64,000 nucleotides of DNA from Caldithrix abyssi DSM 13497 (lineage in GTDB: Bacteria; Electryoneota; AABM5-125-24; Hatepunaeales; Hatepunaeaceae), in NCBI GenBank assembly GCA_945865405.1, contig CAMBDS010000002.1:2368-66367 (forward strand). Reading direction: 5' to 3'. The notes beneath the pieces are model-generated. The model ran no database searches. It saw only the letters and a program-made list of their open reading frames with translations, and had not been told where the DNA came from. A program made the position numbers and the translations under genes. This document shows, one piece after another, positions 2,266-45,674 of this stretch (position 1 is the stretch's first letter; every line of letters starts with the position of its first letter).

Positions 2266-4554
2266 TTATCGCATTAAGACGATTTTTTGAGTGGAAATGT
2301 CGGAACCTGATTGGAGGCGGACGAGATAGACTCCTGCGGGGGCGGAGGAGGCGTTCCAGACAAGTTTGGAATTTGGAGTTTGGAGTTTGGATTGAGGAAG
2401 GTCGAGCAGATCCTTTACAATCCGCCCCGACAGGTCGTAGATGCGTAGCCCGGCTTCCCCGAAGCCGGGGTTGAGAGAGAACCGTATGGTCAGAATCGAG
2501 TTAAACGGATTCGGCGACACACTCAATAACTCAGTCGCGTAGGGCCGATCTCCGAATCGGCCATCTTTCCCCACCCCCAAATCCCGCACCGTCACATCCC
2601 ACGTCACCGTATCCGCCTCAACCGAATCAGCCACAATGGCAGACACTTGGTAGTGCGGATTTAAATCCGCACTACCGGCAAATCTCCACTCCAGCCCCAA
2701 CTCCCCCTCCCGAACCACCTCCCCATCGACAAGCCACTGAATGCTTAGCGACTCGTTCTCCGGCTCACTCGGCACAACCTCGAAATGGACGACGCTGTCG
2801 GGTTCTACGTCGAAAGCAAGAGCCTCTGGCACATACGCCCAGATCGCCCCTCGAACGGCCACGTTCCACGTCACCTGATCGGACGACTGACCGCGATAAG
2901 CCCTTCCTTCAACCGTATAGTCCCCCGACCAAGGAAACTCGAACGTAACGCCGGCATCCCTGCCGGCTTCTTCTGTCTCCCCATTGCTCAGGTTCGTCTT
3001 CGTCCAGACGTATTCCGGTTCCTCTTCGCCAACATACTGAACAGTATCTATCGAGAAATCAACTAAGGAGCCTCTGCGTAGAGTGAGGTTGAGTGTATCG
3101 GGCGTAAACGCGGAGATGTAGAGGTCGGTGACGGTGACGTGCCATTGTACAGAATCGGCAAATTGGCCATCGGAGACTATGCAGACAACCTCGTGGTTAC
3201 CGACATCAGACCAGCTTAGGATTATTGCATTCGATTCTGAAACGACTTCGCCATCGATTTTATACCTAAAAATTACTGAGTCACCTTGAGGATCCTGAGC
3301 ACGAACTCTGAAAAGCAACTCTTGATCAATCAACATATTGACATCGGGCGGTGGCGGGCGAACAAATAGTATTTCAGGAGCTTGGGGTTCGTAACCTAAT
3401 GTCACGACTATACCTCTGCCGCCATTATCAGGATTACTCTGTTCTCCAACAAAGACGAACTCCTGATTACGGTTGACAATCCCCTCAAGCAATAAACCAC
3501 TACCTCCTCTTCCAGGAGGAACAACAAGCCTCAGTTCCCACTGAAGATTACCGGCGCGGTCTGTCAGCACGATTCCTGGAGCGGAATCTGCCCATCCTCC
3601 TATCAGCGCAATCGTTCCGTCATTCAATCGCGCCAATCCGGATGTTCCCAACCAATTTTCAATGTTTATCAATCGGCTATCCCAGCGTACTTCCCCATTC
3701 CTACTCACGCGGAGAACCCTTGGATAGCTTCTGTTGTGATTGAACCAGAAATTCCCGCCCAATAAAAAATCGCCATCATAAGATTCCATACCACTGATTG
3801 CAACATTACTTTCACCAACCGGGTATTGCCAATGATCGACAGTATGCAATTCGTAATCGACGTGTACCAAAGGTCCTGAACTTGTATTATTTTGGCCCGT
3901 AAAGTAGAATCCCTCTCCCGCAGCCTCCCGAGCTACAGTTATCTGAGAACAGATATCGGGATCGTAAGTTGCGTCGATTATAATTTCACCTTCCTCATCT
4001 ACCAAGACGGCGTATCCGTGAAATTCTTCATCAATCATTCTGCGACCTGCCAATAGAAATGTTCCCGCCTTTGTTTCGATAACACTACTGCATTGGCCTT
4101 GATCATTGCCGTTGTATCGACGTTCCCAAATTAACCTTCCGTCGTCTCCTCTGCACATAAAGGCAACAAAGTGATTGCTCGCTATACCCGCCCCGCCGAC
4201 AAGGATGTTACCAGCGTCTGTCTCGATCAAGCACTCCGGACTGTCGCTGGTTTGATCCCCAAATCCGTCCCACCATCGCTCCCAGATGATTTCTCCAACA
4301 TCATCGATTTTGAAGAGCCAGTTGTGAGCATAGGCTCCTGGCCCGCGACGTCCATGATTACTTCCGACACAGATATAGTTGTCATCCTCGCATTGATAGA
4401 TATCGCGGATATCTTCTAACCAAACGCCATAAAAGTGGTAGTCTCGTAAGATGGGCTGGGCACTTAGAGATGAAACTATCAGTGGAATCGAAGTCAGCCA
4501 GAGGAGTAGTCTATGGCTCGAAAATTGAAGGCTCATAATATTTTCTGTAAACAA
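2266..4554 (-). CDS. T9SS C-terminal-domain secreted protein, repeat-rich (beta-propeller-like)
   Basis: 762 aa. N-terminal signal peptide. C-terminus is SVSPNPFNSILTIRFSL...LRIYDLSGRIVKDLL...AGVYLVRLQSGSDISTQKIVLMR, a Por/T9SS sorting domain. Internal repeats are degenerate. Confidence 0.75.
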   Translation of the reverse strand: MFTENIMSLQFSSHRLLLWLTSIPLIVSSLSAQPILRDYHFYGVWLEDIRDIYQCEDDNYICVGSNHGRRGPGAYAHNWLFKIDDVGEIIWERWWDGFGDQTSDSPECLIETDAGNILVGGAGIASNHFVAFMCRGDDGRLIWERRYNGNDQGQCSSVIETKAGTFLLAGRRMIDEEFHGYAVLVDEEGEIIIDATYDPDICSQITVAREAAGEGFYFTGQNNTSSGPLVHVDYELHTVDHWQYPVGESNVAISGMESYDGDFLLGGNFWFNHNRSYPRVLRVSRNGEVRWDSRLINIENWLGTSGLARLNDGTIALIGGWADSAPGIVLTDRAGNLQWELRLVVPPGRGGSGLLLEGIVNRNQEFVFVGEQSNPDNGGRGIVVTLGYEPQAPEILFVRPPPPDVNMLIDQELLFRVRAQDPQGDSVIFRYKIDGEVVSESNAIILSWSDVGNHEVVCIVSDGQFADSVQWHVTVTDLYISAFTPDTLNLTLRRGSLVDFSIDTVQYVGEEEPEYVWTKTNLSNGETEEAGRDAGVTFEFPWSGDYTVEGRAYRGQSSDQVTWNVAVRGAIWAYVPEALAFDVEPDSVVHFEVVPSEPENESLSIQWLVDGEVVREGELGLEWRFAGSADLNPHYQVSAIVADSVEADTVTWDVTVRDLGVGKDGRFGDRPYATELLSVSPNPFNSILTIRFSLNPGFGEAGLRIYDLSGRIVKDLLDLPQSKLQTPNSKLVWNASSAPAGVYLVRLQSGSDISTQKIVLMR
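2365..2392. repeat. (TTTGGAR)4 heptanucleotide repeat inside T9SS cargo CDS
   Basis: tttggaatttggagtttggagtttggat. Encodes KLQTPNSKL in the minus frame. Confidence 0.85.
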
Positions 4555-5262: not shown

Positions 5263-5306
5263 GTTGCGAGGGGGTGCAAGGTGCAAGGTGCAAGGTGCAA
5301 GGTGCA
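5263..5306. repeat. (GGTGCAA)6 heptanucleotide tandem repeat, intergenic
   Basis: ggtgcaa x6, read directly. Lies upstream of the minus-strand small secreted protein gene. Confidence 0.9.
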
Positions 5307-5572
5307 AGGTGCAAGGAAAAGATCTGACCATTAGGCTTCCGGTGAAAGGTCTATAGAGTTCTTTTCAGTATCTACCATAACAATATAATAGCGTCATGAA
5401 TACATCGCAAGAAGTTCGGCATTTATTTTTTGAAGATAGGGTGGAGGATTGGGGGAATAACGACGTAAAGTGAAGAATGTGAAATGGTTGAGGCGAAGTA
5501 GAAAGAGGAAGAAGGTTAGTGGATACCGGCGTTCGCCGGTATGAGATGTTATTTAGTGAGAAGTGAGTTTAG

Positions 5573-9400: not shown

Positions 9401-10322
9401 CTCCTCTTCGCAAAATCAGTGTGTCGTTCTCACCGGCAAGCTTGAAGTCGGTGTGCATCTGAAGCAAAAAGCCCCTTAGGGCTTCGACAGGATCACGAGT
9501 AACAACCGGTTGTCTTTTGAGACCAAGAGTAAAAAATGGAATGATCGACAGATCGTCCGATGCAGGATCAGAATTATGTACTTGAATTGCAAGGACGTTG
9601 CGGCCCTGCCTAACCAGTGCTCCAATCGTCGGGACAAAGAACAATTCGGGCCTGCCACCAGCCCACATAACAGCTTCGTGTTCATCGACCGAAGTCGAGT
9701 CAAATCGAGGTGGAAGCCCACCGACGTTGGCACGGGCAACCTCCTCTCCATTTACATAGGCGACAAAACCGTCATCATAATCAGCATGTAGGATAGCATA
9801 CTCTAAATCAGAAACATTATCGACATTAAAATCGATTCTGATATAGAGACTTGTTGTGGCTGGAACGATTGTCGAGTCATCGCCGTCACCATAGCCAAGG
9901 CTAAGCCTGCCACGTTGCCAGTCTGAATCGTTGATATCAGGCCAATACCAGCCAAATGCAGGTTCTGAAGCAGGGACAAGGTATCGGCACGGATCGCCGG
10001 GTCTGATGACAGTCTCGTTAAATGGAGCTAATTGCCCTTTGTTTTTGGCTGAAGCAAAGAACAAGACTCGCTGAAAAGCACTTAATTCGAAATTGGGAAT
10101 GGGCCACGGGAGGGTGTCGGAAGGATGATCGCAGATCGTCCAACCGTTTAATGAGACGGGGTCGAATGAGTTGTTGTACAACTCAAACCAGTCGGGGTAT
10201 CTTCCATCCTCATCCGCAATGGCAGCGAGATTGCCGGTCATGTACTCGTTGATCAAAACACCCTGTGCAAAAACGACCGGATTAATCAACAATACGGTTA
10301 TGACCGCAAACAGGTAACCCAT
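6468..10322 (-). CDS. CotH-kinase-family protein with two lamin-tail domains and a T9SS C-terminal sorting domain
   Basis: ORF track starts at 10499. The likely start is M60 (MGYLFAVITVLLINPVVFAQG, signal peptide), whose ATG overlaps the TAA of the upstream regulator as TAATG. The first lamin-tail domain is VLINEYMTG...DWFELYN...LNGWTI and the second is PVINEINYHSLD...GDWVELYALDGEVNLSDWSLSD. The CotH-like core is LVLRNGGSDWDHAIFRDDLL...AIIYLNGAYWGILNIRQQMNEQF. C-terminus is VFPNPFNSRVTVTV...IYWVRVSQADKSAIAKLVLVR. Confidence 0.8.
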   Translation of the reverse strand: MGYLFAVITVLLINPVVFAQGVLINEYMTGNLAAIADEDGRYPDWFELYNNSFDPVSLNGWTICDHPSDTLPWPIPNFELSAFQRVLFFASAKNKGQLAPFNETVIRPGDPCRYLVPASEPAFGWYWPDINDSDWQRGRLSLGYGDGDDSTIVPATTSLYIRIDFNVDNVSDLEYAILHADYDDGFVAYVNGEEVARANVGGLPPRFDSTSVDEHEAVMWAGGRPELFFVPTIGALVRQGRNVLAIQVHNSDPASDDLSIIPFFTLGLKRQPVVTRDPVEALRGFLLQMHTDFKLAGENDTLILRRGDGTVVDEVIVQDVPSNMSRGRAPDGSNDWRIFQIPTPGEPNPLVGGTVVTPKPLMSPLPGFYTTPITVTIRDTITQANIYYTLDGSTPDESSIFYTGPFVLDTSCVVRAVARIPGELLSPDRVRSYIIGPRPTLPVISLSMKPDDLWNPETGMYVLGPTYDPLPPFRGANFWQNWERPVHVEMFETNGLEAFEVDAGLKIHGGWTRSFPQKSLRIMARAKYGDPNIAYRVFPDWSFDKFESLVLRNGGSDWDHAIFRDDLLTGLMREDFPYISAYRPAIIYLNGAYWGILNIRQQMNEQFVAERRNVDPSEVDEFEIWGEKVNGEWDAYTELVEFFNTRDLSLADNYRIAEEMVDIDEFIKYNAVNIYVDNGDWPGNNNRLFRIRRPGEKWHWFLLDLDFGFGLHADSSWVHNSLADALDPDGPVWPNPPYATLYLRKLCENPIFRAKFINGFANLMNFQFKPDNVLRHMNEKKATIQGEVERHLVRWDRNLAEWEEKVATIPPFAHNRPAAMRQFLEERFNLPGHASITLSCNPPVGGDIKINGRNIIPTGWSGIYFRTVPIVLDAVPLPGYRFIGWTGGSASTDSRITITLDNDRSLTAIFALAPGLVGLPVINEINYHSLDSFDTGDWVELYALDGEVNLSDWSLSDQDSTHHYVFPIGTTIPSGQYLVVAEDTMKFHRFFPGMNNVLGNMGFGLDGNGDQVRLLSSRLETIDSVRFNDIPPWPGEADGLGATLELIDPALRNEDSTNWRASLVRNGSPMASNRYNQPGQFQLLSPPDGASVRNDSVLVRWSKSVDNDPGDTVRYVIEWSRTGNFPASSAPTLDTFTYITDVPANLARVSHVTDGLPEGMTIFWRVRAMDTRNFTTIAAPGDSGWSFTINLPVLPTEFGLRPVFPNPFNSRVTVTVDVAVAGEVSLAFYNLLGQVVYANRSVMQAGSHKFFFPSVGEDHMASGIYWVRVSQADKSAIAKLVLVR

Positions 10323-26125: not shown

Positions 26126-27492
26126 AGATAATTACAAAAAAGCCGTTTAGGTATCCGCTGGCTTACGCCCTCGTCTGCCAGCATCAAACCCAAGCTGCGG
26201 GTAGCCCGCCGAGCCTGGCGGGTAGCCCGGCGAGCCTGGCGGGTAGCCCGGCGAGCTTTGCTCGGCGGGTCTTTCCACTTACTCTCTTTTTCACTTTGCT
26301 CATCTTTTCGTCTATTTCTATCATTGGTTGCACGACAGAAACTGTCTCTCCTCGCTACAACAACATCCGTCCTGAGATTATCCTGTTTGAAACCCTTCCC
26401 GACGATTCCATCGAAGTCCAGGATACACTGGTTCTCGAGTGTGAAGCCGATGATCCCGAGGGCCAACCGCTAAGCTATTTCTGGCATGCAGAAAGCGGCA
26501 CAATTCTCTCTGATTCTACCGTAACGACACGATGGGTCGCTCCTCGAGTTCCCGGTAGCTATTGGATAAATTTAACAGTAAGTGATCCTTTTTCAGATAC
26601 AACCGCTTCTCGTTTGGCAATAGTACTACCCCGAGGTGCGACAAATCGTGCACCTGAAATTGTGCAGATTACTACAGTCCCTGATACAGTAACTGCAGGT
26701 GAAATAGTAAACTGCGCAGTACAGGCGACAGACGAAGAGGAAGATGCCCTCAGCTACATCTGGACAGCACAGGCGGGCGAATTCGACCGTTCGTTTGGCT
26801 CCCAAGTTCACTGGGCGGCACCTGCTGAGTTAGGCGAGTATTATATTAAAGTTGCCGTTACCGACGGCAACCACTCCATTTCTGATTCACTTTCAGTTTT
26901 GGTTGCGGCGGACACAGTAACTCTTTATGATGCTGATTTTACTATAGATCAAGTAAGTGGAGCATGGGGGAGTATAGGCTTGTTGGCAGGGTTGGGGGAT
27001 AGTGAGGGTATTAACCAAATAGAATGGGATTCTACAACTCACGCAATGTCAGTTACTTCCAAAACAACTTATGGCACTTATGGATTCAGATTAATAGGCC
27101 GTAATTTCGGCCCCGGAACGTTTTACTGCACCGTGAAAGTCCTTAACGGTGAATATCATAGGATTGCTTTTGTACCAAAACTGATCGACAGGCAAAACTA
27201 TGTTATATTTGGTATCGATCCTTATGTAGGAAGCTGGCAGGTCTTGCGATGTACTGCAGGAACAATGCAATACCTTTCGGAAGGCTGGAACACTTTCGAC
27301 TTGAATAACCCGCTAAGGTTTGAATATAAAGAATCCAATAACCGCGCCACCGCATCTATAAATGGTCAAATGCTTTGGTCTGGCGCAGTTGCACCCGAAT
27401 TTCAGAGAAGTGCTCCGATGGGAGTTGCACTATACGGCACCAACCAATCAGGCCCCGCTCTCTTCGATAACTTCATGATCTCAACACCCTAA
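26122..27492 (+). CDS. lipoprotein with two Ig/PKD-like repeats and a C-terminal beta-sandwich domain
   Basis: 456 aa. ATG overlaps the upstream stop as ATGA. Lipobox-like SISIIGC. Two ~90-aa repeats are PEIILFETLPDD...YFWHAESG and PEIVQITTVPD...YIWTAQAG. The 5' coding region contains a REP-like hairpin and a 3x21-nt tandem repeat. Confidence 0.55.
   Translation: MKIITKKPFRYPLAYALVCQHQTQAAGSPPSLAGSPASLAGSPASFARRVFPLTLFFTLLIFSSISIIGCTTETVSPRYNNIRPEIILFETLPDDSIEVQDTLVLECEADDPEGQPLSYFWHAESGTILSDSTVTTRWVAPRVPGSYWINLTVSDPFSDTTASRLAIVLPRGATNRAPEIVQITTVPDTVTAGEIVNCAVQATDEEEDALSYIWTAQAGEFDRSFGSQVHWAAPAELGEYYIKVAVTDGNHSISDSLSVLVAADTVTLYDADFTIDQVSGAWGSIGLLAGLGDSEGINQIEWDSTTHAMSVTSKTTYGTYGFRLIGRNFGPGTFYCTVKVLNGEYHRIAFVPKLIDRQNYVIFGIDPYVGSWQVLRCTAGTMQYLSEGWNTFDLNNPLRFEYKESNNRATASINGQMLWSGAVAPEFQRSAPMGVALYGTNQSGPALFDNFMISTP
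26155..26185. repeat. REP-like hairpin, copy 4, inside annotated 5' end of lipoprotein ORF
   Basis: ccgctggcttacgccctcgtctgccagcatc is the near-exact reverse complement of gatgctggcatacgagggcgtctgccagcgg at 45754-45784. Confidence 0.7.
26197..26259. repeat. 3 x 21-nt tandem repeat (GCGGGTAGCCCGSCGAGCCTG) in 5' coding region of lipoprotein gene
   Basis: Encodes AGSPPSL AGSPASL AGSPASF. On the opposite strand it gives RRATRQA repeats. Confidence 0.85.
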
Positions 27493-27496
27493 ATAT

Positions 27497-28423
27497 CTAC
27501 TTCAATCTTTTCCGTCTTGCTAAAAATTCAAACAGCGCAATTTCGAAAGGAACGTCTGTCGTGAATAATCGGTAGTCTATCCTCCCCCCGCTGCATCCAT
27601 GTCGATAAAATTCAAGCACCTTCTCCATCTCTTCACGATATGCCTGCCGAATATGGTGAGGTCTTGTCGGCAGCAATTCGGTCGTTTCAAGATCTCTGAA
27701 TTTGGCATCTCTGGGAAAATCAAACGTAACTTCCAGCGGGTCAAGGATATGAAAAACAAGCAATTCATGACCGACGTGCCGAACTGCTCGCATCGCTGCT
27801 AATGTCTCTTCTGGATCATCAAGTAAATCACTGATCAACACTACCAACCCCCTCCGCTTCACTCTCTCTGCCACATCGAACAGCGCTGAAGCGACTTTCG
27901 TTTTGCCAACCGGCTGAAGATCCTGCATTTGTTTCGACAATGTCTCCAGCCACCCCATGGTGGACTTGGGGGGGAGGATGGAGGTGAGGCTTTCCGCAAA
28001 TGTCACCAACCCCACTGCATCTCGTTGTTTCAGCAATAACAACGATATCGCTGCCGCCAAACACGTCGCATACTCTAACTTCGACAGTTTCCCTTCCTTC
28101 ATTCGTAATTCGTCATTCGTAATTCGTAATTCTCCCTTGAACCCCATCGACCCGGAATGGTCAACCAGGATATACGCCTTCAGGTTGGTCTCCTCTTCGA
28201 ACTGCTTGATGTAGTACCGCCCCGTCTTGCCCAACACCTTGTAATCAAGGTGCTTCAGGCTATCCCCCGCCATGTAAGGCCGATGCTGGGCAAACTCGAC
28301 CGAGAAGCCGTGGTACGGGCTTTGGTGCAATCCCGTCAGGAAACCTTCCACTACCGCCTGCGCATTTAGTTGCAGGTTGGATAGCCGCGAGACGGCCGAG
28401 GGGTTGAGAAGCTGTTGCGTCAA
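27497..28423 (-). CDS. DUF58 family protein (vWA-like, MoxR-associated type)
   Basis: 308 aa. DUF58 core is HRPYMAGDSLKHLDYKVLGKTGRYYIKQFEEETNLKAYILVDHSGSMGF. An internal heptanucleotide repeat sits in-frame in the coding sequence. Confidence 0.7.
   Translation of the reverse strand: MTQQLLNPSAVSRLSNLQLNAQAVVEGFLTGLHQSPYHGFSVEFAQHRPYMAGDSLKHLDYKVLGKTGRYYIKQFEEETNLKAYILVDHSGSMGFKGELRITNDELRMKEGKLSKLEYATCLAAAISLLLLKQRDAVGLVTFAESLTSILPPKSTMGWLETLSKQMQDLQPVGKTKVASALFDVAERVKRRGLVVLISDLLDDPEETLAAMRAVRHVGHELLVFHILDPLEVTFDFPRDAKFRDLETTELLPTRPHHIRQAYREEMEKVLEFYRHGCSGGRIDYRLFTTDVPFEIALFEFLARRKRLK
28101..28135. repeat. (ATTCGTM)5 heptanucleotide repeat inside DUF58 CDS
   Basis: attcgta attcgtc attcgta attcgta attctcc. 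Encodes ELRITNDELRM. Confidence 0.8.
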
Positions 28424-29360: not shown

Positions 29361-29439
29361 TGCAAATTTGGGTTAGGTTAAGGTTGAGAGTGATACGGAA
29401 GGAGCCTTGTTGCTATAGGCGTTTGGCAGGAAATTACGA

Positions 29440-29640
29440 CCCGGTAGGACAGGTTTCCAAACCTGTCCCTCTTCTTTCAGGAGGACAGGCGTCCCTGACT
29501 TTCCCCACCGCTTGCGGGGGGGACAAAGGGGGCGTGTGCTTTCGTCACTCTCTCCCGTACGACAGGCGTCCCTGACTGTCATCTTATCCCCCTCTGCTTG
29601 CAGGGGGGAATTAAAGGGGGGGTGGTTTCCCTATTGCAGG
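29440..29640. repeat. cluster of palindromic repeat units (GGACAGGTTTCCAAACCTGTCC; CCCCACCGCTTGCGGGGGG; GACAGGCGTCCCTGAC) between TerC and HK genes
   Basis: The perfect 22-nt palindrome ggacaggtttccaaacctgtcc lies at 29448-29469. G/C-run flanked ccgcttgcgg lies at 29506-29520. gacaggcgtccctgact occurs twice. Confidence 0.8.
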
Positions 29641-34121: not shown

Positions 34122-34414
34122 CTCAACCTCGCCTGTCGAAGGCGATTCTGGAGAAATCGAATTCTCTTTTGGGTGCGCTAACCTCTTCTAACATAACTTT
34201 AATCCATAATTCTAACGAAACTCAGGGCTTTCGTCATGCTGGTTTACTGTAAAATTCGGTGACTTTTGTTCCTCGCTACCGTTGCATATAGTACGACAGA
34301 GTCAGGCTGAGTGTGTGCTCTTCCCCTCTTTATTTAAGACGCATTATTTAAGCGACATTTTCACTTGCTTTTTATCAATTATTGTCGTATATTAGCAGTC
34401 ACAATCTACTACCT

Positions 34415-34460
34415 TACTTCGTACTTCGTACTTCTGACTTCTGACTTCTGACTTCGTACT
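34415..34460. repeat. mixed heptanucleotide tandem repeat (TACTTCG)2(TGACTTC)3, intergenic
   Basis: tacttcgtacttcgtacttctgacttctgacttctgacttcgtact. Confidence 0.8.
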
Positions 34461-34584
34461 TTTTCTGTGACTGATGTGACCATTCAAACATGTTGAATCA
34501 CAAATCGATCACGCCTGTAGCCACTATCCAATAAGCCTTTCCAGATTCCTGTGACTCAGTGATCGATTTTTGACTATACCGCCC

Positions 34585-35994
34585 TTATCCGTGAATCTGC
34601 ATCTTATTGACCGCCAGTGCCGCCTCCTTCAAGGCTTCGGAAAGCGTTGGGTGAGCGTGGATCGTGCGGCCAATATCCTCGGACGACGCGACAAACTCCA
34701 TCGCCATAGCGGCCTCAGCGATCAGGTCGGAAGCTCGCGGCCCCAATATGCTGACCCCCAACACCCTGTCGGTCTCAGCGTCAGCGACAACCTTCACCAA
34801 CCCCTCCGCACTGCCAAGGCTTAGTGCCCGCCCGTTCCCGCGGAAGTAGAACTTCCCGGTCTTGACCGTCTTCCCCGCCGCTTTCGCCTCATCCTCCGAC
34901 AACCCAACCACCGCAAGCTCAGGATTCGTATAGACAACATTCGGGACAACGTCGTAATTGACGTGCCCGGCGTGACCTGTGAGCTGCTCGGCTAACGCGA
35001 CGCCTTCTTCGGATGCCTTGTGCGCCAGCATCGGCCCGCGGATCAGATCGCCGATAGCGTAAACGCTGTGGATGTTGGTCTGGAAGTGGTCGTCAACCAC
35101 GACTTTGCCACGCTCGATGGCGACGCCAGCCTCAGCCAAGCCTGCGCCTTCGCTGAAGGCACGCCTGCCTATCGCGACAAGGATTTTGTCGCCAATGAGG
35201 CTCTGCTCAGCGCCGTCCTTGTCGGTGTAGGTGAGGGTGGCTTTTTTGCCTTTGACGGTCGCGCCGGTGACTTTGGCGTTAAGGATGAATTCGATGCCCT
35301 GATCAGTCAAAGATTTCTGGAGCATCGTCGTCAACTGCTTGTCGGCGAACGGGACGATGTTGGGGAGCATCTCCACGACGGTGACTTTGCTGCCGAGCCG
35401 CCGCCAGACGCTGCCAAGCTCAAGGCCGACCGCGCCAGCGCCGACGACGATCAGGTGGTCGGGGACTTTGTCGAAGGCGAGAGCTTCGGTCGAGGAAACG
35501 ACGAACTTGCCGTCGAACTTCATGAAGGGAAGCTCGATGGGGACAGAGCCCATGGCGAGGACGATGCTCTTAGTTTGGAGTTTGGAGTTTGGAGTTTGGA
35601 ATTGCGGGTCGGCGCTGTCAAGAATTTCGACTTCGCCGGTACCGATGAGCTTTCCAGTCCCTTTGATGACCGTGACCTTATTCTTCTTCATCAGCAAGGC
35701 GATGCCGTCAGTCAGGGTGTTGACGATGTTAGTTTTTTTGCCGAGAAGCTGGGGCAGGTCAAGCGAGACGCCGGAGGTTTTGATGCCGTAGCCAGGAAAT
35801 TTATGGAGGACGTCGTGGAACCATTCGGAGGTTTCGAGCATGGCTTTGGAAGGGATACAGCCAACGTTTAGGCACGTTCCGCCGAGGCGGGCGTCCTTTT
35901 CGACGAGGGCGACTTTCATGCCAAGCTGGGCGGCACGGATGGCGCAGACATAGCCTCCGGGGCCTGAGCCGATGACGACAAGATCGAAGTTCAT
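34585..35994 (-). CDS. lpdA: dihydrolipoyl dehydrogenase (E3)
   Basis: 469 aa. FAD-binding site is VVIGSGPGGYVCAIRAAQLG. Redox-active disulfide is GGTCLNVGCIPSK. Carries an in-frame (TTTGGAG)n insert encoding QTPNSKLQTK. Confidence 0.9.
   Translation of the reverse strand: MNFDLVVIGSGPGGYVCAIRAAQLGMKVALVEKDARLGGTCLNVGCIPSKAMLETSEWFHDVLHKFPGYGIKTSGVSLDLPQLLGKKTNIVNTLTDGIALLMKKNKVTVIKGTGKLIGTGEVEILDSADPQFQTPNSKLQTKSIVLAMGSVPIELPFMKFDGKFVVSSTEALAFDKVPDHLIVVGAGAVGLELGSVWRRLGSKVTVVEMLPNIVPFADKQLTTMLQKSLTDQGIEFILNAKVTGATVKGKKATLTYTDKDGAEQSLIGDKILVAIGRRAFSEGAGLAEAGVAIERGKVVVDDHFQTNIHSVYAIGDLIRGPMLAHKASEEGVALAEQLTGHAGHVNYDVVPNVVYTNPELAVVGLSEDEAKAAGKTVKTGKFYFRGNGRALSLGSAEGLVKVVADAETDRVLGVSILGPRASDLIAEAAMAMEFVASSEDIGRTIHAHPTLSEALKEAALAVNKMQIHG
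35574..35601. repeat. (TTTGGAG)4 heptanucleotide repeat inside lpd CDS
   Basis: tttggagtttggagtttggagtttggaa. Same tract as at 2365. Encodes FQTPNSKLQTK. Confidence 0.85.
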
Positions 35995-36031
35995 TAAGAA
36001 TTAATAATTAAGAATTAATAATTAAGAATAG
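35995..36031. repeat. 14-nt tandem repeat (TTAAGAATTAATAA x2.6) abutting lpd start codon
   Basis: ttaagaattaataa ttaagaattaataa ttaagaata, directly adjacent to the lpd ATG (complement of 35992-35994). Confidence 0.8.
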
Positions 36032-38600: not shown

Positions 38601-39893
38601 TCACACTCCCATCATCAACCGTTCCGGCTGTTCGATGCACTCGACGATTTTTTTCAGGAAGGCGACAGACTCGCGGCCGTCAATCAGGCGGTGGTCATAT
38701 GAAAGCGCGAGGTACATCATCGGACGGACGACGATCTGGTCAGAGTCACCAACCACCACAGGACGCTTCTTGACCCCATGCAAGCCCAAAATCCCCGGCT
38801 GAGGCGGGTTCAGGATCGGCGTCGAAAGCATCGAACCGAAGACCCCACCATTGGAAATCGTGAAGACGCCGCCTTGCAAGTCGTCCAAGGTGATCGTCCG
38901 GTTGCGAGCCTTCTCTGCGTAGCGGGCAATTGCAGCCTCAAGCTCGGCAAAACCGAGCTGGTCAGCATCACGAATGACCGGCACAACCAAACCGCGCTCC
39001 GTCGAGACAGCTACGCCGATGTCGTAAAAGTGGTTCTCGACGATTGAGTCGCCGTCGATCCGGGCGTTGACTGCGGGGACGGCTTTCAAAGCCTCGACGG
39101 TCGCCTTCACGAAGAACGACATGAACCCAAGTTTGATACCGTATTTTGCCTGAAATGGTTCCTGCAAGTGAGCGCGCGCAGTCATCACCGCCGACATATC
39201 GACCTCGTTGAAGGTGGACAGTGTGGCAGAGTTATGCTGAGACTCTACCATCCGCTCGGCGATGCGGTGGCGGAGGGAAGACATGGGGCGACGAGTTGTT
39301 CTCTCGGCAATGGAAGGTTTGACACCCCCCCCTGCCCCCCCCGCAAGCGGTGGGGGTAGAGAGACAGGTTTGGAAACCTGTCCTACCGAAACTGCTTTCA
39401 GGGCATCTTCTTTGGTGATGCGGCCGCCTTTGCCTGTGCCGACGATCAGCGCGGGGTTAAGTTGCTCCTCGGCGACGATACGACGAACGGAAGGAGCCAG
39501 GTCGTTTAGATTAGCTTTGAGAGATTCGATGCCTGCGGTTGGGGAGAGAGCGGGAATTTCTGAGGAGGAGGAGGAGACACCCCCCCCTGCCCCCCCCGCA
39601 AGCGGTGGGGATGCGACAGGTTTGGAAACCTGTCCTACCGGGGCGGGAGCCGCTACGGCGTCGGTGTCGATGGTGGCGACGGAACTGCCGATCAAGACGG
39701 TGTCGCCGGGTTTGGCGGAGAGGCTGATTCGTCCGGCCTTCTCTGCGGTGACGGTCATAGAGACTTTGTCGGTCTCAAGCTCGAAGAGAGCGTCGTCCGC
39801 CTTGACGAAGGCTCCGTCGGAAACTTTCCATTCAGCGAGGATACCTTCCGAGATCGACTCGCCTACGGCCGGGACTTTGACGGTAATGCGCAT
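38601..39893 (-). CDS. sucB: dihydrolipoamide succinyltransferase, E2 of 2-oxoglutarate dehydrogenase
   Basis: 430 aa. Lipoyl domain is LFELETDKVSMTV. Two Ala/Pro/Gly linkers. Subunit-binding domain is IVGTGKGGRITKEDA. Catalytic DHRLIDG. Both linkers are encoded by copies of a palindromic repeat element. Confidence 0.85.
   Translation of the reverse strand: MRITVKVPAVGESISEGILAEWKVSDGAFVKADDALFELETDKVSMTVTAEKAGRISLSAKPGDTVLIGSSVATIDTDAVAAPAPVGQVSKPVASPPLAGGAGGGVSSSSSEIPALSPTAGIESLKANLNDLAPSVRRIVAEEQLNPALIVGTGKGGRITKEDALKAVSVGQVSKPVSLPPPLAGGAGGGVKPSIAERTTRRPMSSLRHRIAERMVESQHNSATLSTFNEVDMSAVMTARAHLQEPFQAKYGIKLGFMSFFVKATVEALKAVPAVNARIDGDSIVENHFYDIGVAVSTERGLVVPVIRDADQLGFAELEAAIARYAEKARNRTITLDDLQGGVFTISNGGVFGSMLSTPILNPPQPGILGLHGVKKRPVVVGDSDQIVVRPMMYLALSYDHRLIDGRESVAFLKKIVECIEQPERLMMGV
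39302..39375. repeat. copy of the palindromic element inside sucB linker 2 (in-frame)
   Basis: cccccccctgccccccccgcaagcggtgggggtagagagacaggtttggaaacctgtcctacc is the reverse-complement of the 29440-29520 units. Encodes VGQVSKPVSLPPPLAGGAGGGV. Confidence 0.8.
39582..39650. repeat. second copy of the palindromic element inside sucB linker 1 (in-frame)
   Basis: cccccccctgccccccccgcaagcggtggggatgcgacaggtttggaaacctgtcctacc. Encodes GQVSKPVASPPLAGGAGGGV. Confidence 0.8.
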
Positions 39894-39984: not shown

Positions 39985-41061
39985 TTATCTTGCGCCCCTA
40001 TTCTTCCGCCACAGCTTTATAATGCCGAGGCCGCATCCGCTCGCCAGCCTTGTTCCGTCGGGGCTGAACGCGACAGAAAGGACCCAATCATTATGCCCCG
40101 TAAGCGTCCCAAGTAGCGCCCCGTCCGACGGCCGCCACAGCTTGATGCGGTTGTCGCCGCCCCCACTTGCCAGCGTCATCCCGTCGGGACTAAAGGCGAC
40201 GGACGAAACTCCGCCCTTATGCCCCTCGAGCGTCCGCAGACAGGAACCGTCCGAAGCTCGCCATAGATTGATGGCATTATCCCGGCTCCCGCTTGCCAGC
40301 GTCGTCCCGTCAGGGCTGAAAGCGACAGAATGGACCCAATTCGAATGTCCTTCGAGAGTCCGCAGGCGCTCCCCGTCCGAAGCCCGCCACAGCTTGACGG
40401 TTTTATCCGTGCTTCCACTCGCCAGAGTCGCCCCATCGGGGCTGAAGGCGACAGTTAGGATCCCTTTCTTATGCCCTTCGAGCGTCCGCAGACGGGCACC
40501 GTCCGAAGCCTTCCACAGCTTAATGGTTTTATCCAGACTCCCGCTCGCCAGCGTCGTTCCATCGGGGCTGAAGGAGACGGAATTGACCCAATTCGCATGC
40601 CCTTCGAGCGTCCGCAACAGCGACCCGTCCGAAGCCCGCCACAGCTTGATGCGGTTGTCGCATCCCCCACTCGCCAGAGTCGTCCCGTCGGGGCTGAAGG
40701 CGACGGATAAGACTCCATTATTGTGACTCTCAATTGTCTTCAGTAGTTTCCCGTCCGAAGTACGCCACAATTTGATGGTTTCATCCATGCTCCCACTCGC
40801 CAGAGTTGTCCCGTCGGGGTTGAAGGCGACGCACATTGCCCCTCCACCAGTATGCCCCTCGAGTGTCCTTTCGAGCGTGACGTCAATATCTTGCACGGCG
40901 GTGGCTTCGTACGCAAAACAAAGACATATGAGAACGCTAAGGCTGTGAATTCTAATCCAATCAACAAGGCACGAAAGAGGATAAAGCCTCCAAGTTTTTC
41001 CGTCCCAATGCCTAACAGCCTCTTCGTTTCTTTGTGTCTTCGTGTTAAAATCCTTGCACAC
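39985..41061 (-). CDS. WD40-repeat beta-propeller protein (7 near-identical repeats)
   Basis: 358 aa. Seven repeats of the form LEGH...V.SVAFSPDGTTLASGS.D.TIKLWRASDG..LRTL. Hydrophobic N-terminal segment. Confidence 0.8.
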   Translation of the reverse strand: MCKDFNTKTQRNEEAVRHWDGKTWRLYPLSCLVDWIRIHSLSVLICLCFAYEATAVQDIDVTLERTLEGHTGGGAMCVAFNPDGTTLASGSMDETIKLWRTSDGKLLKTIESHNNGVLSVAFSPDGTTLASGGCDNRIKLWRASDGSLLRTLEGHANWVNSVSFSPDGTTLASGSLDKTIKLWKASDGARLRTLEGHKKGILTVAFSPDGATLASGSTDKTVKLWRASDGERLRTLEGHSNWVHSVAFSPDGTTLASGSRDNAINLWRASDGSCLRTLEGHKGGVSSVAFSPDGMTLASGGGDNRIKLWRPSDGALLGTLTGHNDWVLSVAFSPDGTRLASGCGLGIIKLWRKNRGAR

Positions 41062-45476: not shown

Positions 45477-45674
45477 GAGGAAAGTTAAAGGTTGAAAGTT
45501 AAAAGTTTAATGGTGCCAGAGACGTCATGTGTCCGGGAAGTTAATATAAGCAATTTTTCAGATTTTTTGTGCGTAAAGGAAAGAGATATCCTTCCCCCCG
45601 ATCAGGTCAGGGGCTACGACCGTTCAGGATACATTCTGCCTCAGGCAGACGAGGACGTCTGCCTGAAAGAAACG

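What the first reader, a model, noticed from the sequence alone, without database searches (positions are those of the whole stretch)
2365..2392. Identical (TTTGGAG)n heptanucleotide tract embedded in-frame in two unrelated genes (T9SS cargo and lpd)
A tract of 4 x TTTGGAR lies at 2365-2392, inside the sorting domain of the 762-aa T9SS cargo protein, where it encodes KLQTPNSKL. A near-identical tract lies at 35574-35601 inside the essential lpdA gene, encoding FQTPNSKLQTK in a variable surface loop.

Heptamer tracts are not multiples of three, so single-unit slippage would frameshift. Finding the same tract in two coding contexts points to an active mechanism that spreads or expands short repeats in this genome. 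The cargo gene could be a contingency locus. In lpd the tract would be under strong purifying selection against slippage.
Basis: seen in the sequence. Interest (0 to 1): 0.6.

Follow-up and report, generated by a model that had tools for sequence, protein, structure and literature searches.

The report
Seven-base repeat tracts inside genes
The same 28-base tract, four copies of a 7-base unit, sits in-frame in two unrelated genes because this uncultured bacterium and its relatives keep making and renewing short 7-base tandem repeats all over their genomes, which is a known but poorly explained kind of bacterial repeat rather than an on/off switch.

Summary
(AGTTTGG)x4.1 lies at 2363-2391 in the sorting domain of a T9SS cargo gene, with one mismatch. 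A perfect copy lies at 35572-35600 in lpd. Zero such matches occurred in 100 shuffles.

It is not an isolated pair. Period 7 is the only period from 5 to 15 with tandem arrays in the window. There are about eight arrays, with other units. One is a third in-frame tract in a DUF58/VWA gene, and two abut start codons.

Relatives are equally rich in heptamers. Four lpd orthologues whose four-fold sites are only 38-55% identical all carry about four copies at the same site. Each has its own unit (TCCAAAC, TCCAAAT, TCCAAAA, TCAGAAA), so the tract is renewed after speciation.

Homologous non-coding arrays differ by exactly three units. Within a genome, one unit recurs at unrelated loci.

Best reading: a heptanucleotide simple-sequence-repeat system, like cyanobacterial STRRs and the Beggiatoaceae TAACTGA and Xanthomonas GGGAATC repeats. 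Coding copies appear to be tolerated passengers in loops, limited to frame-preserving sizes.

Phase variation is unsupported: independent assemblies and a paralogue are identical. Whether units spread between loci by conversion or mobility remains open.

The parts
2363..2391 (-). Heptamer tract (TCCAAAC)x4.1 on the coding strand, with one variant unit (TCCAAAT). It is in-frame in the C-terminal sorting domain of the cargo gene and encodes SKLQTPNSKL.
   Evidence: An identical tract, including the variant unit, is in paralogue L088 12123-12151.
2266..4554 (-). Cargo gene with a T9SS C-terminal sorting domain (762-aa ORF; the database version, 756 aa, starts at an internal Met). It belongs to a family with highly conserved C-terminal halves and a hypervariable loop where the tract sits.
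   Evidence: Pfam Por_Secre_tail 4.4e-10 at residues 680-759. Family alignment.
35572..35600 (-). Perfect heptamer tract (TCCAAAC)x4.1 in-frame in lpd, encoding FQTPNSKLQT (residues 132-141).
   Evidence: Orthologues carry TCCAAAT, TCCAAAA or TCAGAAA arrays at the same site. In the AF2 model the residues span loop 126-136 and the start of strand 137-146, with block pLDDT 67-74.
34585..35994 (-). lpd, dihydrolipoyl dehydrogenase (E3), 469 aa.
   Evidence: Pfam and PDB matches. 100% identical to database protein P0001.
28099..28132 (-). Third in-frame heptamer tract, (GAATTAC)x4.9, encoding ELRITNDELRM. It lies in a variable loop of a DUF58/VWA gene (27497..28423), just after DHSGSMGF.
5273..5316 (.). 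Intergenic perfect array (GGTGCAA)x6.3, upstream of the small ORF that precedes the cargo gene.
   Evidence: The homologous region in L209 has 3.3 copies, exactly 21 nt fewer.
34413..34461 (.). Intergenic array of TACTTCG/TACTTCTGACTTCG units, x6.7, lying 124 nt downstream of the lpd stop codon.
35993..36029 (-). AT-rich array (TTCTTAA/TTATTAA)x5.3 that runs directly into the lpd ATG as its 5' leader.
   Evidence: Orthologues have heptamer-like AT-rich leaders in the same place. The same two units form a 70-nt array in L212.
45481..45507 (-). [quoted passage not shown]

Best explanation
The two tracts belong to a genome-wide population of short tandem heptanucleotide repeats. These are long simple sequence repeats of the 7-nt class, like cyanobacterial STRRs. 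This uncultured FCB-group bacterium (nearest named Lpd is from a Calditrichaeota MAG, 70% identity) and its relatives generate and renew them continuously.

Inferred mechanism. Slipped-strand-type expansion and contraction is unusually active for 7-nt units in this lineage. It amplifies a short native seed. Point changes in one unit are then spread through the array by repeated contraction and re-expansion (concerted evolution). In non-coding DNA, arrays change by any number of units and can become long. Inside genes, only arrays in tolerant loops or linkers survive, and only at frame-preserving sizes (steps of 3 units = 21 nt = 7 aa). This would explain why coding arrays stay at about 4-5 copies.

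The coding tracts are probably neutral passengers, not switches. The lpd and cargo tracts have the same unit because each genome has a small set of favoured units that recur at unrelated loci. How units come to be shared between loci (ectopic conversion, copy-paste of mini-cassettes, or sequence preference of the expansion process) is not resolved.

Shown here: enrichment, orthologous-site unit turnover, 3-unit length differences, loop location, and absence of length variation among assemblies. Inferred: slippage as the engine, and neutrality.
For: (1) Period 7 is special. There are exact arrays of 3 or more copies for period 7 only among periods 5-15. TRF lists about 8 period-7 arrays with different units. 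Counting arrays of at least 3.5 copies, the window has 6 in 64 kb, L084 has 4 in 21 kb, and L087 has 4 in 14.5 kb. The 80 control loci from other phyla have 14 in 1.29 Mb, and those lie only in Acidobacteriota and Bacteroidota loci.

(2) Orthologous site, different unit. The lpd genes of the window, L083 (87% aa), L084 (80%) and L087 (78%) all have about four copies at the same position, with units TCCAAAC, TCCAAAT, TCAGAAA and TCCAAAA. More distant Lpd proteins lack the insert. Four-fold degenerate sites are only 38-55% identical between these genes. Near-perfect arrays therefore cannot be relics and must have been homogenised or re-expanded after divergence. The window and L083 tracts differ at exactly three sites, all the same C/T change 7 nt apart. 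By my own count, about 1% of placements of three differences would share a phase by chance.

(3) Native seed. In L084 and L087 the last unit is the conserved K/E-I-E-A codon stretch (…AAATCG|AAGCC). This fits growth from local sequence.

(4) Direct length change. The homologous upstream regions at window 5273-5316 and L209 9199-9221 have 6.3 and 3.3 copies, exactly 21 nt apart, with otherwise well-aligned flanks.

(5) Tolerant sites. The lpd tract lies in a loop with lower pLDDT. The cargo tract lies in the hypervariable loop of the sorting domain. The DUF58 tract lies in a variable loop. E2 tracts in relatives lie in inter-domain linkers.

(6) Generality. The pattern (TCCAAAN)x4 occurs in at least 120 metagenome contigs. 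The 80 retrieved loci carry 173 period-7 arrays (400 per Mb), against 18 per Mb or fewer for other periods. Within long ORFs the tracts are 28 sense to 7 antisense. They sit inside UvrD-type helicase, CheA, ValRS, PurL, P-type ATPase and other genes. Coding arrays reach at most 47 nt, while non-coding arrays reach 130 nt.

(7) Literature. Mrazek 2007 found heptanucleotide repeats to be the most abundant long SSR class in most of the genomes examined (summarised in PMC4679880). PMC4679880 describes genome-specific TAACTGA arrays, some inside ORFs and most upstream of start codons. PMC4692102 reports a preference for four units in GGGAATC repeats.
Against: Pure local slippage does not explain why the same unit recurs at unrelated loci within one genome but differs between genomes.
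- The window has TCCAAAC in lpd and in the cargo gene.
- L087 has TCCAAAA, with the same TCCAAAT variant, in lpd and in E2 linkers (22-nt exact matches).
- GCA_964355675.1 has TCTTAAA at four loci.

The two E2 arrays of L084 are identical over 36 nt, including a TCTGAAA variant that removes an in-frame TAA. That looks copied rather than independently grown.

Single copies of the units are not over-represented outside arrays, so seed abundance does not explain which sites expand.

No slippage event was observed directly. Independent assemblies are identical. Four copies of a 7-mer is short for high slippage rates in well-studied bacteria (my own knowledge). The persistence of arrays at the same sites across species could also mean selection for a function.
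Confidence: 0.6

Rival explanations
1. Dispersal in trans. The tracts are copies of very small cassettes (about 27-36 nt) that are written into, or homogenised between, unrelated loci. This could happen by ectopic gene conversion or by a copy-paste process like the small dispersed repeats of Nostoc. On this view slippage is secondary.
For: The same unit occurs at unrelated loci within a genome and differs between genomes. The L084 E2 linker arrays are identical over 36 nt, including the stop-avoiding variant. L087 lpd and E2 share 22-nt exact stretches with the same alternation of two variants. A 27-nt sequence, CTCGTCTTTGCGAACGAAGTGAAGCAA, is identical and in-frame in a cargo-family gene (L209) and in E2 of another assembly (L084). 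In each case a different heptamer array follows it directly. Hairpin modules occur both in the E2 linkers and in an intergenic region of the window. Elhai et al. 2008 reported 21-27-nt mobile repeats often embedded in tandem heptamers (my own knowledge; the reference is confirmed).
Against: In lpd of L084 and L087 the array ends in the native conserved codons, as expected for local growth. The lpd units form a single-step series AAAATCC > AAATTCC > AAACTCC along the orthologues, which fits in-place evolution. The window's lpd and cargo tracts share only 5 of 6 nt of 5' flank and nothing at the 3' side. No empty-site versus filled-site pair with clean boundaries was found. Within-genome unit sharing is only marginally significant once intragenic duplicates are removed (my tally: 5/54 within-genome pairs versus 2/99 between-genome pairs).
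Confidence: 0.22
2. Contingency locus. The tract in the cargo gene (and perhaps others) is a phase-variation switch. Gain or loss of one unit would turn the secreted protein off and on.
For: A 7-nt unit shifts the frame with every single-unit change (shown directly by the sequence). The gene encodes a secreted or surface protein in a multi-copy family, which is the usual setting for phase variation.
Against: The tract has only four copies and is interrupted by a variant unit. It lies 94 nt from the stop codon, inside the sorting domain. The ORF is intact, and the paralogue L088 has the identical tract. The same kind of tract sits in lpd, DUF58 and E2, and in ValRS, PurL and CheA elsewhere, where switching makes no sense. 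No length differences were seen among independent assemblies of the related loci.
Confidence: 0.05
3. Functional cis-elements. The arrays would be kept by selection as binding sites or unstructured leaders, for example translation enhancers recognised by ribosomal protein S1 or another single-strand binder. Coding copies would be by-products or would add flexible linker peptides.
For: Arrays persist at the same positions across species whose neutral sites are near saturation: the lpd loop, the lpd leader, and just after the lpd stop codon in Acidobacteriota loci L004, L005 and L007. Several arrays abut start codons: window 35993-36029 and 45481-45507, L084 11469-11507, L212 15544-15575, and L211 1461-1486. 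This matches the Beggiatoaceae pattern (PMC4679880).
Against: Units at orthologous positions differ, so no specific sequence is conserved. Coding arrays sit in loops where relatives have unrelated sequences or nothing. No binding factor or expression data are available.
Confidence: 0.1
4. Chance resemblance or assembly artefact.
For: None found.
Against: No match occurred in 100 shuffles. The 29-nt tracts are far shorter than the assembly k-mer implied by the contig name prefix k141 (my inference from the name). ENA and Logan assemblies are identical for the window locus, and the NCBI, ENA and Logan assemblies are identical for the L084 locus. Orthologues from other samples carry arrays at the same site.
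Confidence: 0.01

Closest known systems
Heptanucleotide long simple sequence repeats in prokaryotes (Mrazek, Guo and Shah 2007, as summarised in PMC4679880)
   Same: Tandem 7-nt units are over-represented relative to other unit lengths. The distribution across taxa is sporadic. Polymerase slippage was proposed as the source.
   Different: That survey noted that units whose length is a multiple of three are favoured in coding regions. Here 7-nt arrays sit in-frame in essential genes, at a site shared by related species while the unit changes. The host lineage is an uncultured FCB-group bacterium that was not in that survey.
Cyanobacterial STRR heptamers (Calothrix/Nostoc; Mazel 1990, my own knowledge) and the small dispersed repeats of Nostoc (Elhai 2008; reference confirmed)
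   Same: Genome-characteristic tandem heptamers occur at many loci. They are associated with 21-27-nt dispersed sequences. Here a 27-nt identical module sits next to heptamer arrays.
   Different: The phylum and the units differ. Mobility of the 27-nt module is not shown here. STRRs are described mainly as intergenic.
TAACTGA direct repeats of marine Beggiatoaceae, some Cyanobacteria and Bacteroidetes (MacGregor 2015, PMC4679880)
   Same: [quoted passage not shown] Most sets lie just upstream of start codons. A minority lie inside ORFs in the stop-free orientation, at protein peripheries. No mechanism is known.
   Different: The units differ, and several unit families occur per genome. Here the ORF copies lie in internal loops of conserved enzymes, and comparison of orthologues shows unit turnover.
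GGGAATC / GGGGAYT repeats of Xanthomonas and Nostoc (Rehm 2015, PMC4692102)
   Same: [quoted passage not shown] They are found near ORF ends, and inverted pairs occur. Inverted pairs of arrays are also seen in the metagenome loci.
   Different: Those units are G-rich and the four-unit preference was attributed to G-quadruplex formation. The units here (the sense strand of TCCAAAC has no G) cannot form quadruplexes, yet about four copies is again typical.
Rickettsia palindromic elements inserted in-frame in protein genes (Ogata 2000, my own knowledge)
   Same: Repeated DNA is tolerated in-frame in surface loops of conserved, even essential, proteins.
   Different: RPEs are palindromic mobile elements of about 100-150 bp. 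The tracts here are unstructured tandem repeats of about 28 nt.
Phase-variable simple sequence contingency loci (Haemophilus, Neisseria; my own knowledge; background in PMC2651432)
   Same: A repeat whose unit is not a multiple of three lies inside an ORF for a surface or secreted protein.
   Different: Contingency tracts are long and polymorphic in length. This one is short, interrupted, invariant where tested, and shared with housekeeping genes.

Membership tests
Heptanucleotide long simple sequence repeats (STRR-like) | Head-to-tail copies of a 7-nt unit, three or more copies | tested here: met
   TRF finds period 7 with 4.1 copies at both loci. The exact-run census agrees.
Heptanucleotide long simple sequence repeats (STRR-like) | Period-7 arrays over-represented relative to chance and to other periods in the same genome | tested here: met
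   The window has 6 arrays of at least 3.5 copies for period 7 and none for periods 4-6 and 8-12. Control loci have 11 per Mb. Only 64-143 kb of the genome could be sampled.
Heptanucleotide long simple sequence repeats (STRR-like) | Many loci, with one or a few favoured units per genome | tested here: inconclusive
   TCCAAAC occurs at 3 loci (2 of them paralogous) out of 11 arrays in 143 kb. TCTTAAA occurs at 4 of 7 arrays in 44 kb of GCA_964355675.1. The sample is too small for firm statistics.
Heptanucleotide long simple sequence repeats (STRR-like) | Copy number changes between homologous loci | tested here: met
   The window has 6.3 copies and L209 has 3.3 copies of GGTGCAA in homologous flanks.
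Contingency (phase-variable) locus | Repeat in an ORF or promoter whose unit change shifts frame or spacing | tested here: met
   A 7-nt unit lies inside the ORF.
Contingency (phase-variable) locus | Length polymorphism of the tract within or between close populations, with frame-shifted alleles | tested here: not met
   The paralogue tract is identical. Independent assemblies are 100% identical at the lpd locus of the window and of L084, including the tracts. All ORFs are intact. For the cargo tract itself the only comparison is the paralogue. Read-level data were not available, so low-frequency variants cannot be excluded.
Small dispersed repeats / miniature mobile elements (Elhai-type SDR) | Identical short (about 21-27 nt) sequence at unrelated loci | tested here: met
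   The lpd and cargo tracts share 20 nt exactly (28 of 29 positions overall). An identical 27-nt module occurs in L209 and L084.
Small dispersed repeats / miniature mobile elements (Elhai-type SDR) | Filled versus empty sites with precise boundaries showing insertion | tested here: inconclusive
   The window's E2 linkers lack the arrays present in L084 and L087, but the boundaries are not clean.
Small dispersed repeats / miniature mobile elements (Elhai-type SDR) | Conserved secondary structure of the element | tested here: not met
   The sense strand of the tract contains no G and has no self-complementarity beyond isolated A-U pairs (read directly from the sequence). No folding was run.
T9SS cargo (C-terminal sorting domain protein), host gene of tract 1 | Pfam Por_Secre_tail at the C-terminus plus an N-terminal signal-like segment | tested here: met
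   PF18962 scores 40.2 bits against a cut-off of 27, at residues 680-759. The N-terminus is hydrophobic. Secretion itself was not tested.
Dihydrolipoyl dehydrogenase (E3), host gene of tract 2 | Pyr_redox_2 plus Pyr_redox_dim architecture and full-length similarity to solved E3 structures | tested here: met
   In relatives the orthologues lie in sucA-sucB-lpd order.

The most novel reading that the evidence does not exclude
The arrays may not be products of ordinary slippage alone. A trans-acting process may install and keep uniform a genome-specific set of 7-nt units at many loci, including internal loops of essential genes and positions abutting start and stop codons. Candidates are ectopic conversion between arrays, or an RNA- or DNA-templated copy-paste of cassettes of about 27-36 nt related to the Nostoc small dispersed repeats. 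If so, this lineage would offer orthologous, in-frame 'write sites' (lpd, E2 linkers) with which to dissect a mechanism that has been unexplained since heptamer repeats were first described in cyanobacteria.
Probability: 0.2. Interest if true: 0.8.

Novelty: new member of a known kind. Interest (0 to 1): 0.45.

Why it matters
Bacterial heptanucleotide repeats have been known for decades in cyanobacteria, Xanthomonas and Beggiatoaceae. Why the unit is 7 nt, why about four copies are typical, and why each genome has its own favoured units have no accepted explanation.

This locus adds two useful facts. First, the phenomenon extends to an uncultured FCB-group lineage, and metagenome data show it inside many housekeeping genes. 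Second, an essential gene (lpd) carries an array at one fixed site in four species, with the unit sequence replaced in each. That gives a natural time series of array turnover under a strict frame constraint.

The data also show that the four-copy habit does not depend on G-quadruplex potential.

For annotation, such tracts should not be read as phase-variation switches by default.

Tried and rejected
(1) A genome-contig scan with Lpd returned only relatives at 64% identity or less. The source species and its close relatives were not reached that way, so orthologues came from the protein database and contig look-ups instead. The 80 loci from that scan served as controls.

(2) A look-up of paralogue P0122 failed because it is not on record. 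It is not inside the window.

(3) I looked for a sharp preferred array length. The (TCCAAAN)x4 hits peak at 31-34 nt, but the search pattern biases against shorter arrays. Arrays with other units show only a broad hump. I therefore claim only that coding arrays are short and non-coding arrays can be long.

(4) I tested whether the units are favoured words outside arrays, as HIP1 is in cyanobacteria. They are not: observed counts match maximal-order Markov expectation.

(5) I considered that the shared peptide frame is meaningful. I rejected this, because any frame of three heptamers gives a rotation of the same 7-aa peptide.

(6) I considered that the tract derives from the hairpin module GACAGGTTTCCAAACCTGTC, which contains TCCAAAC and lies in the E2 linkers. 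This is suggestive for the L087 E2 linker 1 only, so I did not adopt it.

(7) Elhai 2008 could not be read. It is cited from memory, with the reference confirmed.

(8) Source names for the organism were not available.
Full report
**Observation**

The window contains AGTTTGGAATTTGGAGTTTGGAGTTTGGA at 2363-2391 and AGTTTGGAGTTTGGAGTTTGGAGTTTGGA at 35572-35600. Tandem Repeats Finder scores both as period 7 with 4.1 copies, at 90% and 100% matches.

Both tracts lie in minus-strand ORFs.
- ORF 2266..4554 (762 aa) has a Por_Secre_tail domain at residues 680-759. It reads ...DLPQSKLQTPNSKLVWNAS....
- ORF 34585..35994 (469 aa) is a dihydrolipoyl dehydrogenase. It reads ...DPQFQTPNSKLQTKSIV....

A 20-mer from the tract, with up to three mismatches allowed, matches only these two loci. 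None of 100 dinucleotide-preserving shuffles gave any match.

The identical peptide frame adds nothing, because three heptamers run through all three frames.

**The tracts are not alone**

In an exact census of the window, period 7 is the only period from 5 to 15 with arrays of three or more copies. TRF lists further period-7 arrays with other units:
- GGTGCAA x6.3 at 5273-5316
- ATTCGTA x4.6 at 28101-28132
- TACTTCG x6.7 at 34415-34461
- ATTAAGA x5.3 at 35993-36029
- AAAGTTA x3.9 at 45481-45507

The array at 28099-28132 is a third in-frame coding tract. It encodes ELRITNDELRM in a variable loop of a DUF58/VWA protein that is otherwise 87% identical to its orthologue.

Two arrays abut start codons. 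One runs straight into the lpd ATG. The other stops 4 nt before the start of a class-I tRNA synthetase gene.

**Source and relatives**

The window is part of ENA contig ERZ27280224 k141_682591, which is 228,884 bp long. The closest named Lpd comes from a Calditrichaeota MAG at 70% identity. The one-genome-per-species collection gave only distant Lpd loci, at 64% identity or less. I used those 80 loci as controls.

Counting period-7 arrays of at least 3.5 copies:

| Sequence | Arrays | Length |
|---|---|---|
| Window | 6 | 64 kb |
| L084 (relative) | 4 | 21 kb |
| L087 (relative) | 4 | 14.5 kb |
| 80 control loci | 14 | 1.29 Mb |

All 14 control arrays lie in Acidobacteriota or Bacteroidota loci.

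**The key result: lpd orthologues**

Four Lpd proteins form a close group: the window, P0002 (87%), P0003 (80%) and P0004 (78%). All have extra residues in the same loop. More distant Lpd proteins have a shorter loop.

Their DNA shows a heptamer array of about four copies at the same site in each, but with a different unit:

| Genome | Array at the lpd site |
|---|---|
| Window | TCCAAAC x4 |
| L083 | TCCAAAT x3 + TCCAAAC |
| L087 | TCCAAAA, with one TCCAAAT |
| L084 | TCAGAAA, with one TCGGAAA |

Four-fold degenerate sites in these genes are only 38-55% identical, so neutral sites are close to saturation. Arrays this perfect cannot be unchanged relics. They have been homogenised or re-expanded after the lineages split.

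The window and L083 tracts differ at three positions. All three are the same C/T change and lie exactly 7 nt apart. By my count, about 1% of placements of three differences would share a phase by chance.

In L084 and L087 the last unit is the conserved native codon stretch for K/E-I-E-A. This fits growth from a local seed. The units also form a single-step series, AAAATCC > AAATTCC > AAACTCC.

Relatives do not encode the peptide with non-repetitive codons.

**Direct evidence of copy-number change**

The region upstream of the cargo cassette is homologous between the window and L209. It carries 6.3 copies of the GGTGCAA unit in the window and 3.3 copies in L209. That is a difference of exactly 21 nt between otherwise well-aligned flanks.

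**Where coding arrays sit**

- In an AlphaFold model of Lpd (mean pLDDT 85.7), the tract residues 132-141 span loop 126-136 and the start of the next strand. Block pLDDT there is 67-74.
- In the cargo family, the tract sits in a loop whose length varies from almost nothing to about 26 residues among homologues.
- In relatives, the E2 subunit (sucB) carries heptamer arrays in both inter-domain linkers. The window's E2 has none at those positions.
- Across the lineage and the metagenome loci, arrays inside long ORFs do not exceed 47 nt. Non-coding arrays reach 130 nt.

This fits a frame constraint: only steps of three units (21 nt, 7 aa) are viable inside genes.

**Against phase variation**

- The cargo tract has four copies and one variant unit.
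- Paralogue L088, from the same sample, has the identical tract including the variant, while the surrounding 143 nt are 90% identical.
- ENA and Logan assemblies of the window's lpd locus are identical. So are the NCBI, ENA and Logan assemblies of the L084 locus.
- The same kind of tract occurs in genes where switching is implausible (see the next section).

Read-level heterogeneity could not be examined.

**Generality**

The pattern (TCCAAAN)x4 occurs in at least 120 metagenome contigs. The 80 retrieved loci (432 kb) hold 173 period-7 arrays, or 400 per Mb. Other periods reach 18 per Mb or fewer.

Within long ORFs the tract is sense 28 times and antisense 7 times. It lies inside a UvrD-type helicase, CheA, valyl-tRNA synthetase, PurL, a P-type ATPase, a lytic transglycosylase and others. 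In-frame heptamer arrays in housekeeping genes are therefore widespread in environmental genomes.

**What plain slippage does not explain**

Within a genome the same unit recurs at unrelated loci, while orthologous loci in other genomes carry other units.
- The window has TCCAAAC in lpd and in two cargo paralogues.
- L087 has TCCAAAA, with the same TCCAAAT variant, in lpd and in both E2 linkers (22-nt exact matches).
- GCA_964355675.1 has TCTTAAA in both E2 linkers and directly upstream of two unrelated start codons.

The two E2 arrays of L084 are identical over 36 nt. Both include a TCTGAAA variant that removes an otherwise unavoidable in-frame TAA.

A 27-nt sequence is identical and in-frame in a cargo-family gene (L209) and in the E2 gene of L084. 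A different heptamer array follows it in each.

Single copies of the units are not over-represented outside arrays.

These facts leave room for conversion between arrays, or for copy-paste of very small cassettes. Once intragenic duplicates are removed, my tally of unit sharing is only marginal (5/54 pairs within genomes against 2/99 between).

**Comparison with what is known**

- Mrazek and colleagues found heptanucleotide repeats to be the most abundant long simple sequence repeats in most of the genomes they examined, and suggested polymerase slippage (as summarised in PMC4679880).
- MacGregor described genome-specific TAACTGA arrays in Beggiatoaceae, Cyanobacteria and Bacteroidetes. Most lie just upstream of start codons and a few lie inside ORFs. 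No mechanism was evident.
[quoted passage not shown] Units that cannot form quadruplexes show the same habit here.
- Elhai and colleagues described 21-27-nt mobile repeats often embedded in tandem heptamers (my own knowledge; reference confirmed; the paper could not be read).

The present case fits this class. It is a new member in an uncultured FCB-group lineage. Its added value is an orthologous, in-frame array series in an essential gene.

**Verdict**

It is partly unsupported: there is no evidence for a contingency locus.

The best explanation is a heptanucleotide simple-sequence-repeat system in which coding copies are tolerated passengers (confidence about 0.6). The main open rival is dispersal or homogenisation in trans (about 0.2). 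Interest is moderate.

Noticed in passing
window 28099-28132 (gene 27497..28423, minus strand): A third in-frame heptamer tract, (GAATTAC)x4.9, encodes ELRITNDELRM. It lies in a variable loop of a DUF58/VWA protein, right after the DHSGSMGF motif. The L084 orthologue (87% identical) has a longer, unrelated insert at the same place. The same unit and peptide (ELRITNYELRE) occur in metagenome locus L136.
   Followed up: yes
window 35993-36029 and 45481-45507; L084 9966-9997 and 11469-11507; L212 15544-15575; L211 1461-1486; L087 7839-7874: Several AT-rich arrays (the L087 one has an 8-nt unit, the others 7-nt) run up to, or within a few bases of, start codons of lpd, a tRNA synthetase, DUF58, a 1092-aa sorting-domain protein, a short-chain dehydrogenase and E2. 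No Shine-Dalgarno sequence lies between array and start. This resembles the TAACTGA pattern in Beggiatoaceae.
   Followed up: partly
window 39321-39388 and 39576-39645 (both E2/sucB linkers, minus strand) and 29437-29532 (intergenic, opposite orientation): Two hairpin-forming modules, GACAGGTTTCCAAACCTGTC and CCCCACCGCTTGCGGGGGGG, occur together in-frame in both linkers of E2, encoding ...GQVSKPV...PPLAGGAGGGV. They occur again in an intergenic region. The first module contains the heptamer unit TCCAAAC. A variant of the second module is also in-frame in the cargo homologue in L209.
   Followed up: partly
L209 12227-12253 and L084 8494-8520 (also L085): The 27-nt sequence CTCGTCTTTGCGAACGAAGTGAAGCAA (LVFANEVKQ) is identical and in-frame in a cargo-family sorting-domain loop and in E2 linker 2 of a different assembly. 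In each case a different heptamer array follows it immediately (TCATCCC x4.3 versus TCTTAAA x5).
   Followed up: partly
window 5273-5316 versus L209 9199-9221: Homologous regions upstream of the cargo cassettes carry 6.3 versus 3.3 copies of the GGTGCAA unit. The difference is exactly 21 nt, between otherwise well-aligned flanks.
   Followed up: yes
L084 8254-8290 and 8519-8557: The two in-frame TCTTAAA arrays in the E2 linkers are identical over 36 nt. Both carry the same TCTGAAA variant, which removes the TAA stop that a pure array would put in frame.
   Followed up: yes
window 2266..4554; L088, L209, L210, L211, L212 (genes at 10001 onward): The cargo gene belongs to a family with at least five members in the same sample. 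Their C-terminal halves are nearly identical and their N-terminal halves are divergent (35-45% identity overall). Five of the six copies examined are directly preceded by a small ORF of 123-165 aa with no Pfam match on record; L210 is not.
   Followed up: partly
L004 2438-2464, L005 11393-11419, L007 11394-11427: In Acidobacteriota (Sulfomarinibacteraceae) control loci, a heptamer array sits immediately after the lpd stop codon, with a different unit in each genome. This is the same 'fixed site, changing unit' pattern in another phylum.
   Followed up: no
L106, L130, L167, L109 (metagenome loci): Pairs of arrays of the same unit occur in opposite orientation, 30-130 nt apart. Such pairs could form long hairpins.
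   Followed up: no
window 40037-40831: A tandem repeat of 126 nt (252-nt super-unit), about 6.3 copies at 71-75% identity. It presumably reflects a repeat-domain protein.
   Followed up: no
window 26197-26256; L087 8391-8496: Other in-register tandem repeats: a 21-nt unit x2.9 in the window, and a 30-nt unit x3.5 in the L087 E2 linker (ASEGGKGVVS repeats).
   Followed up: no
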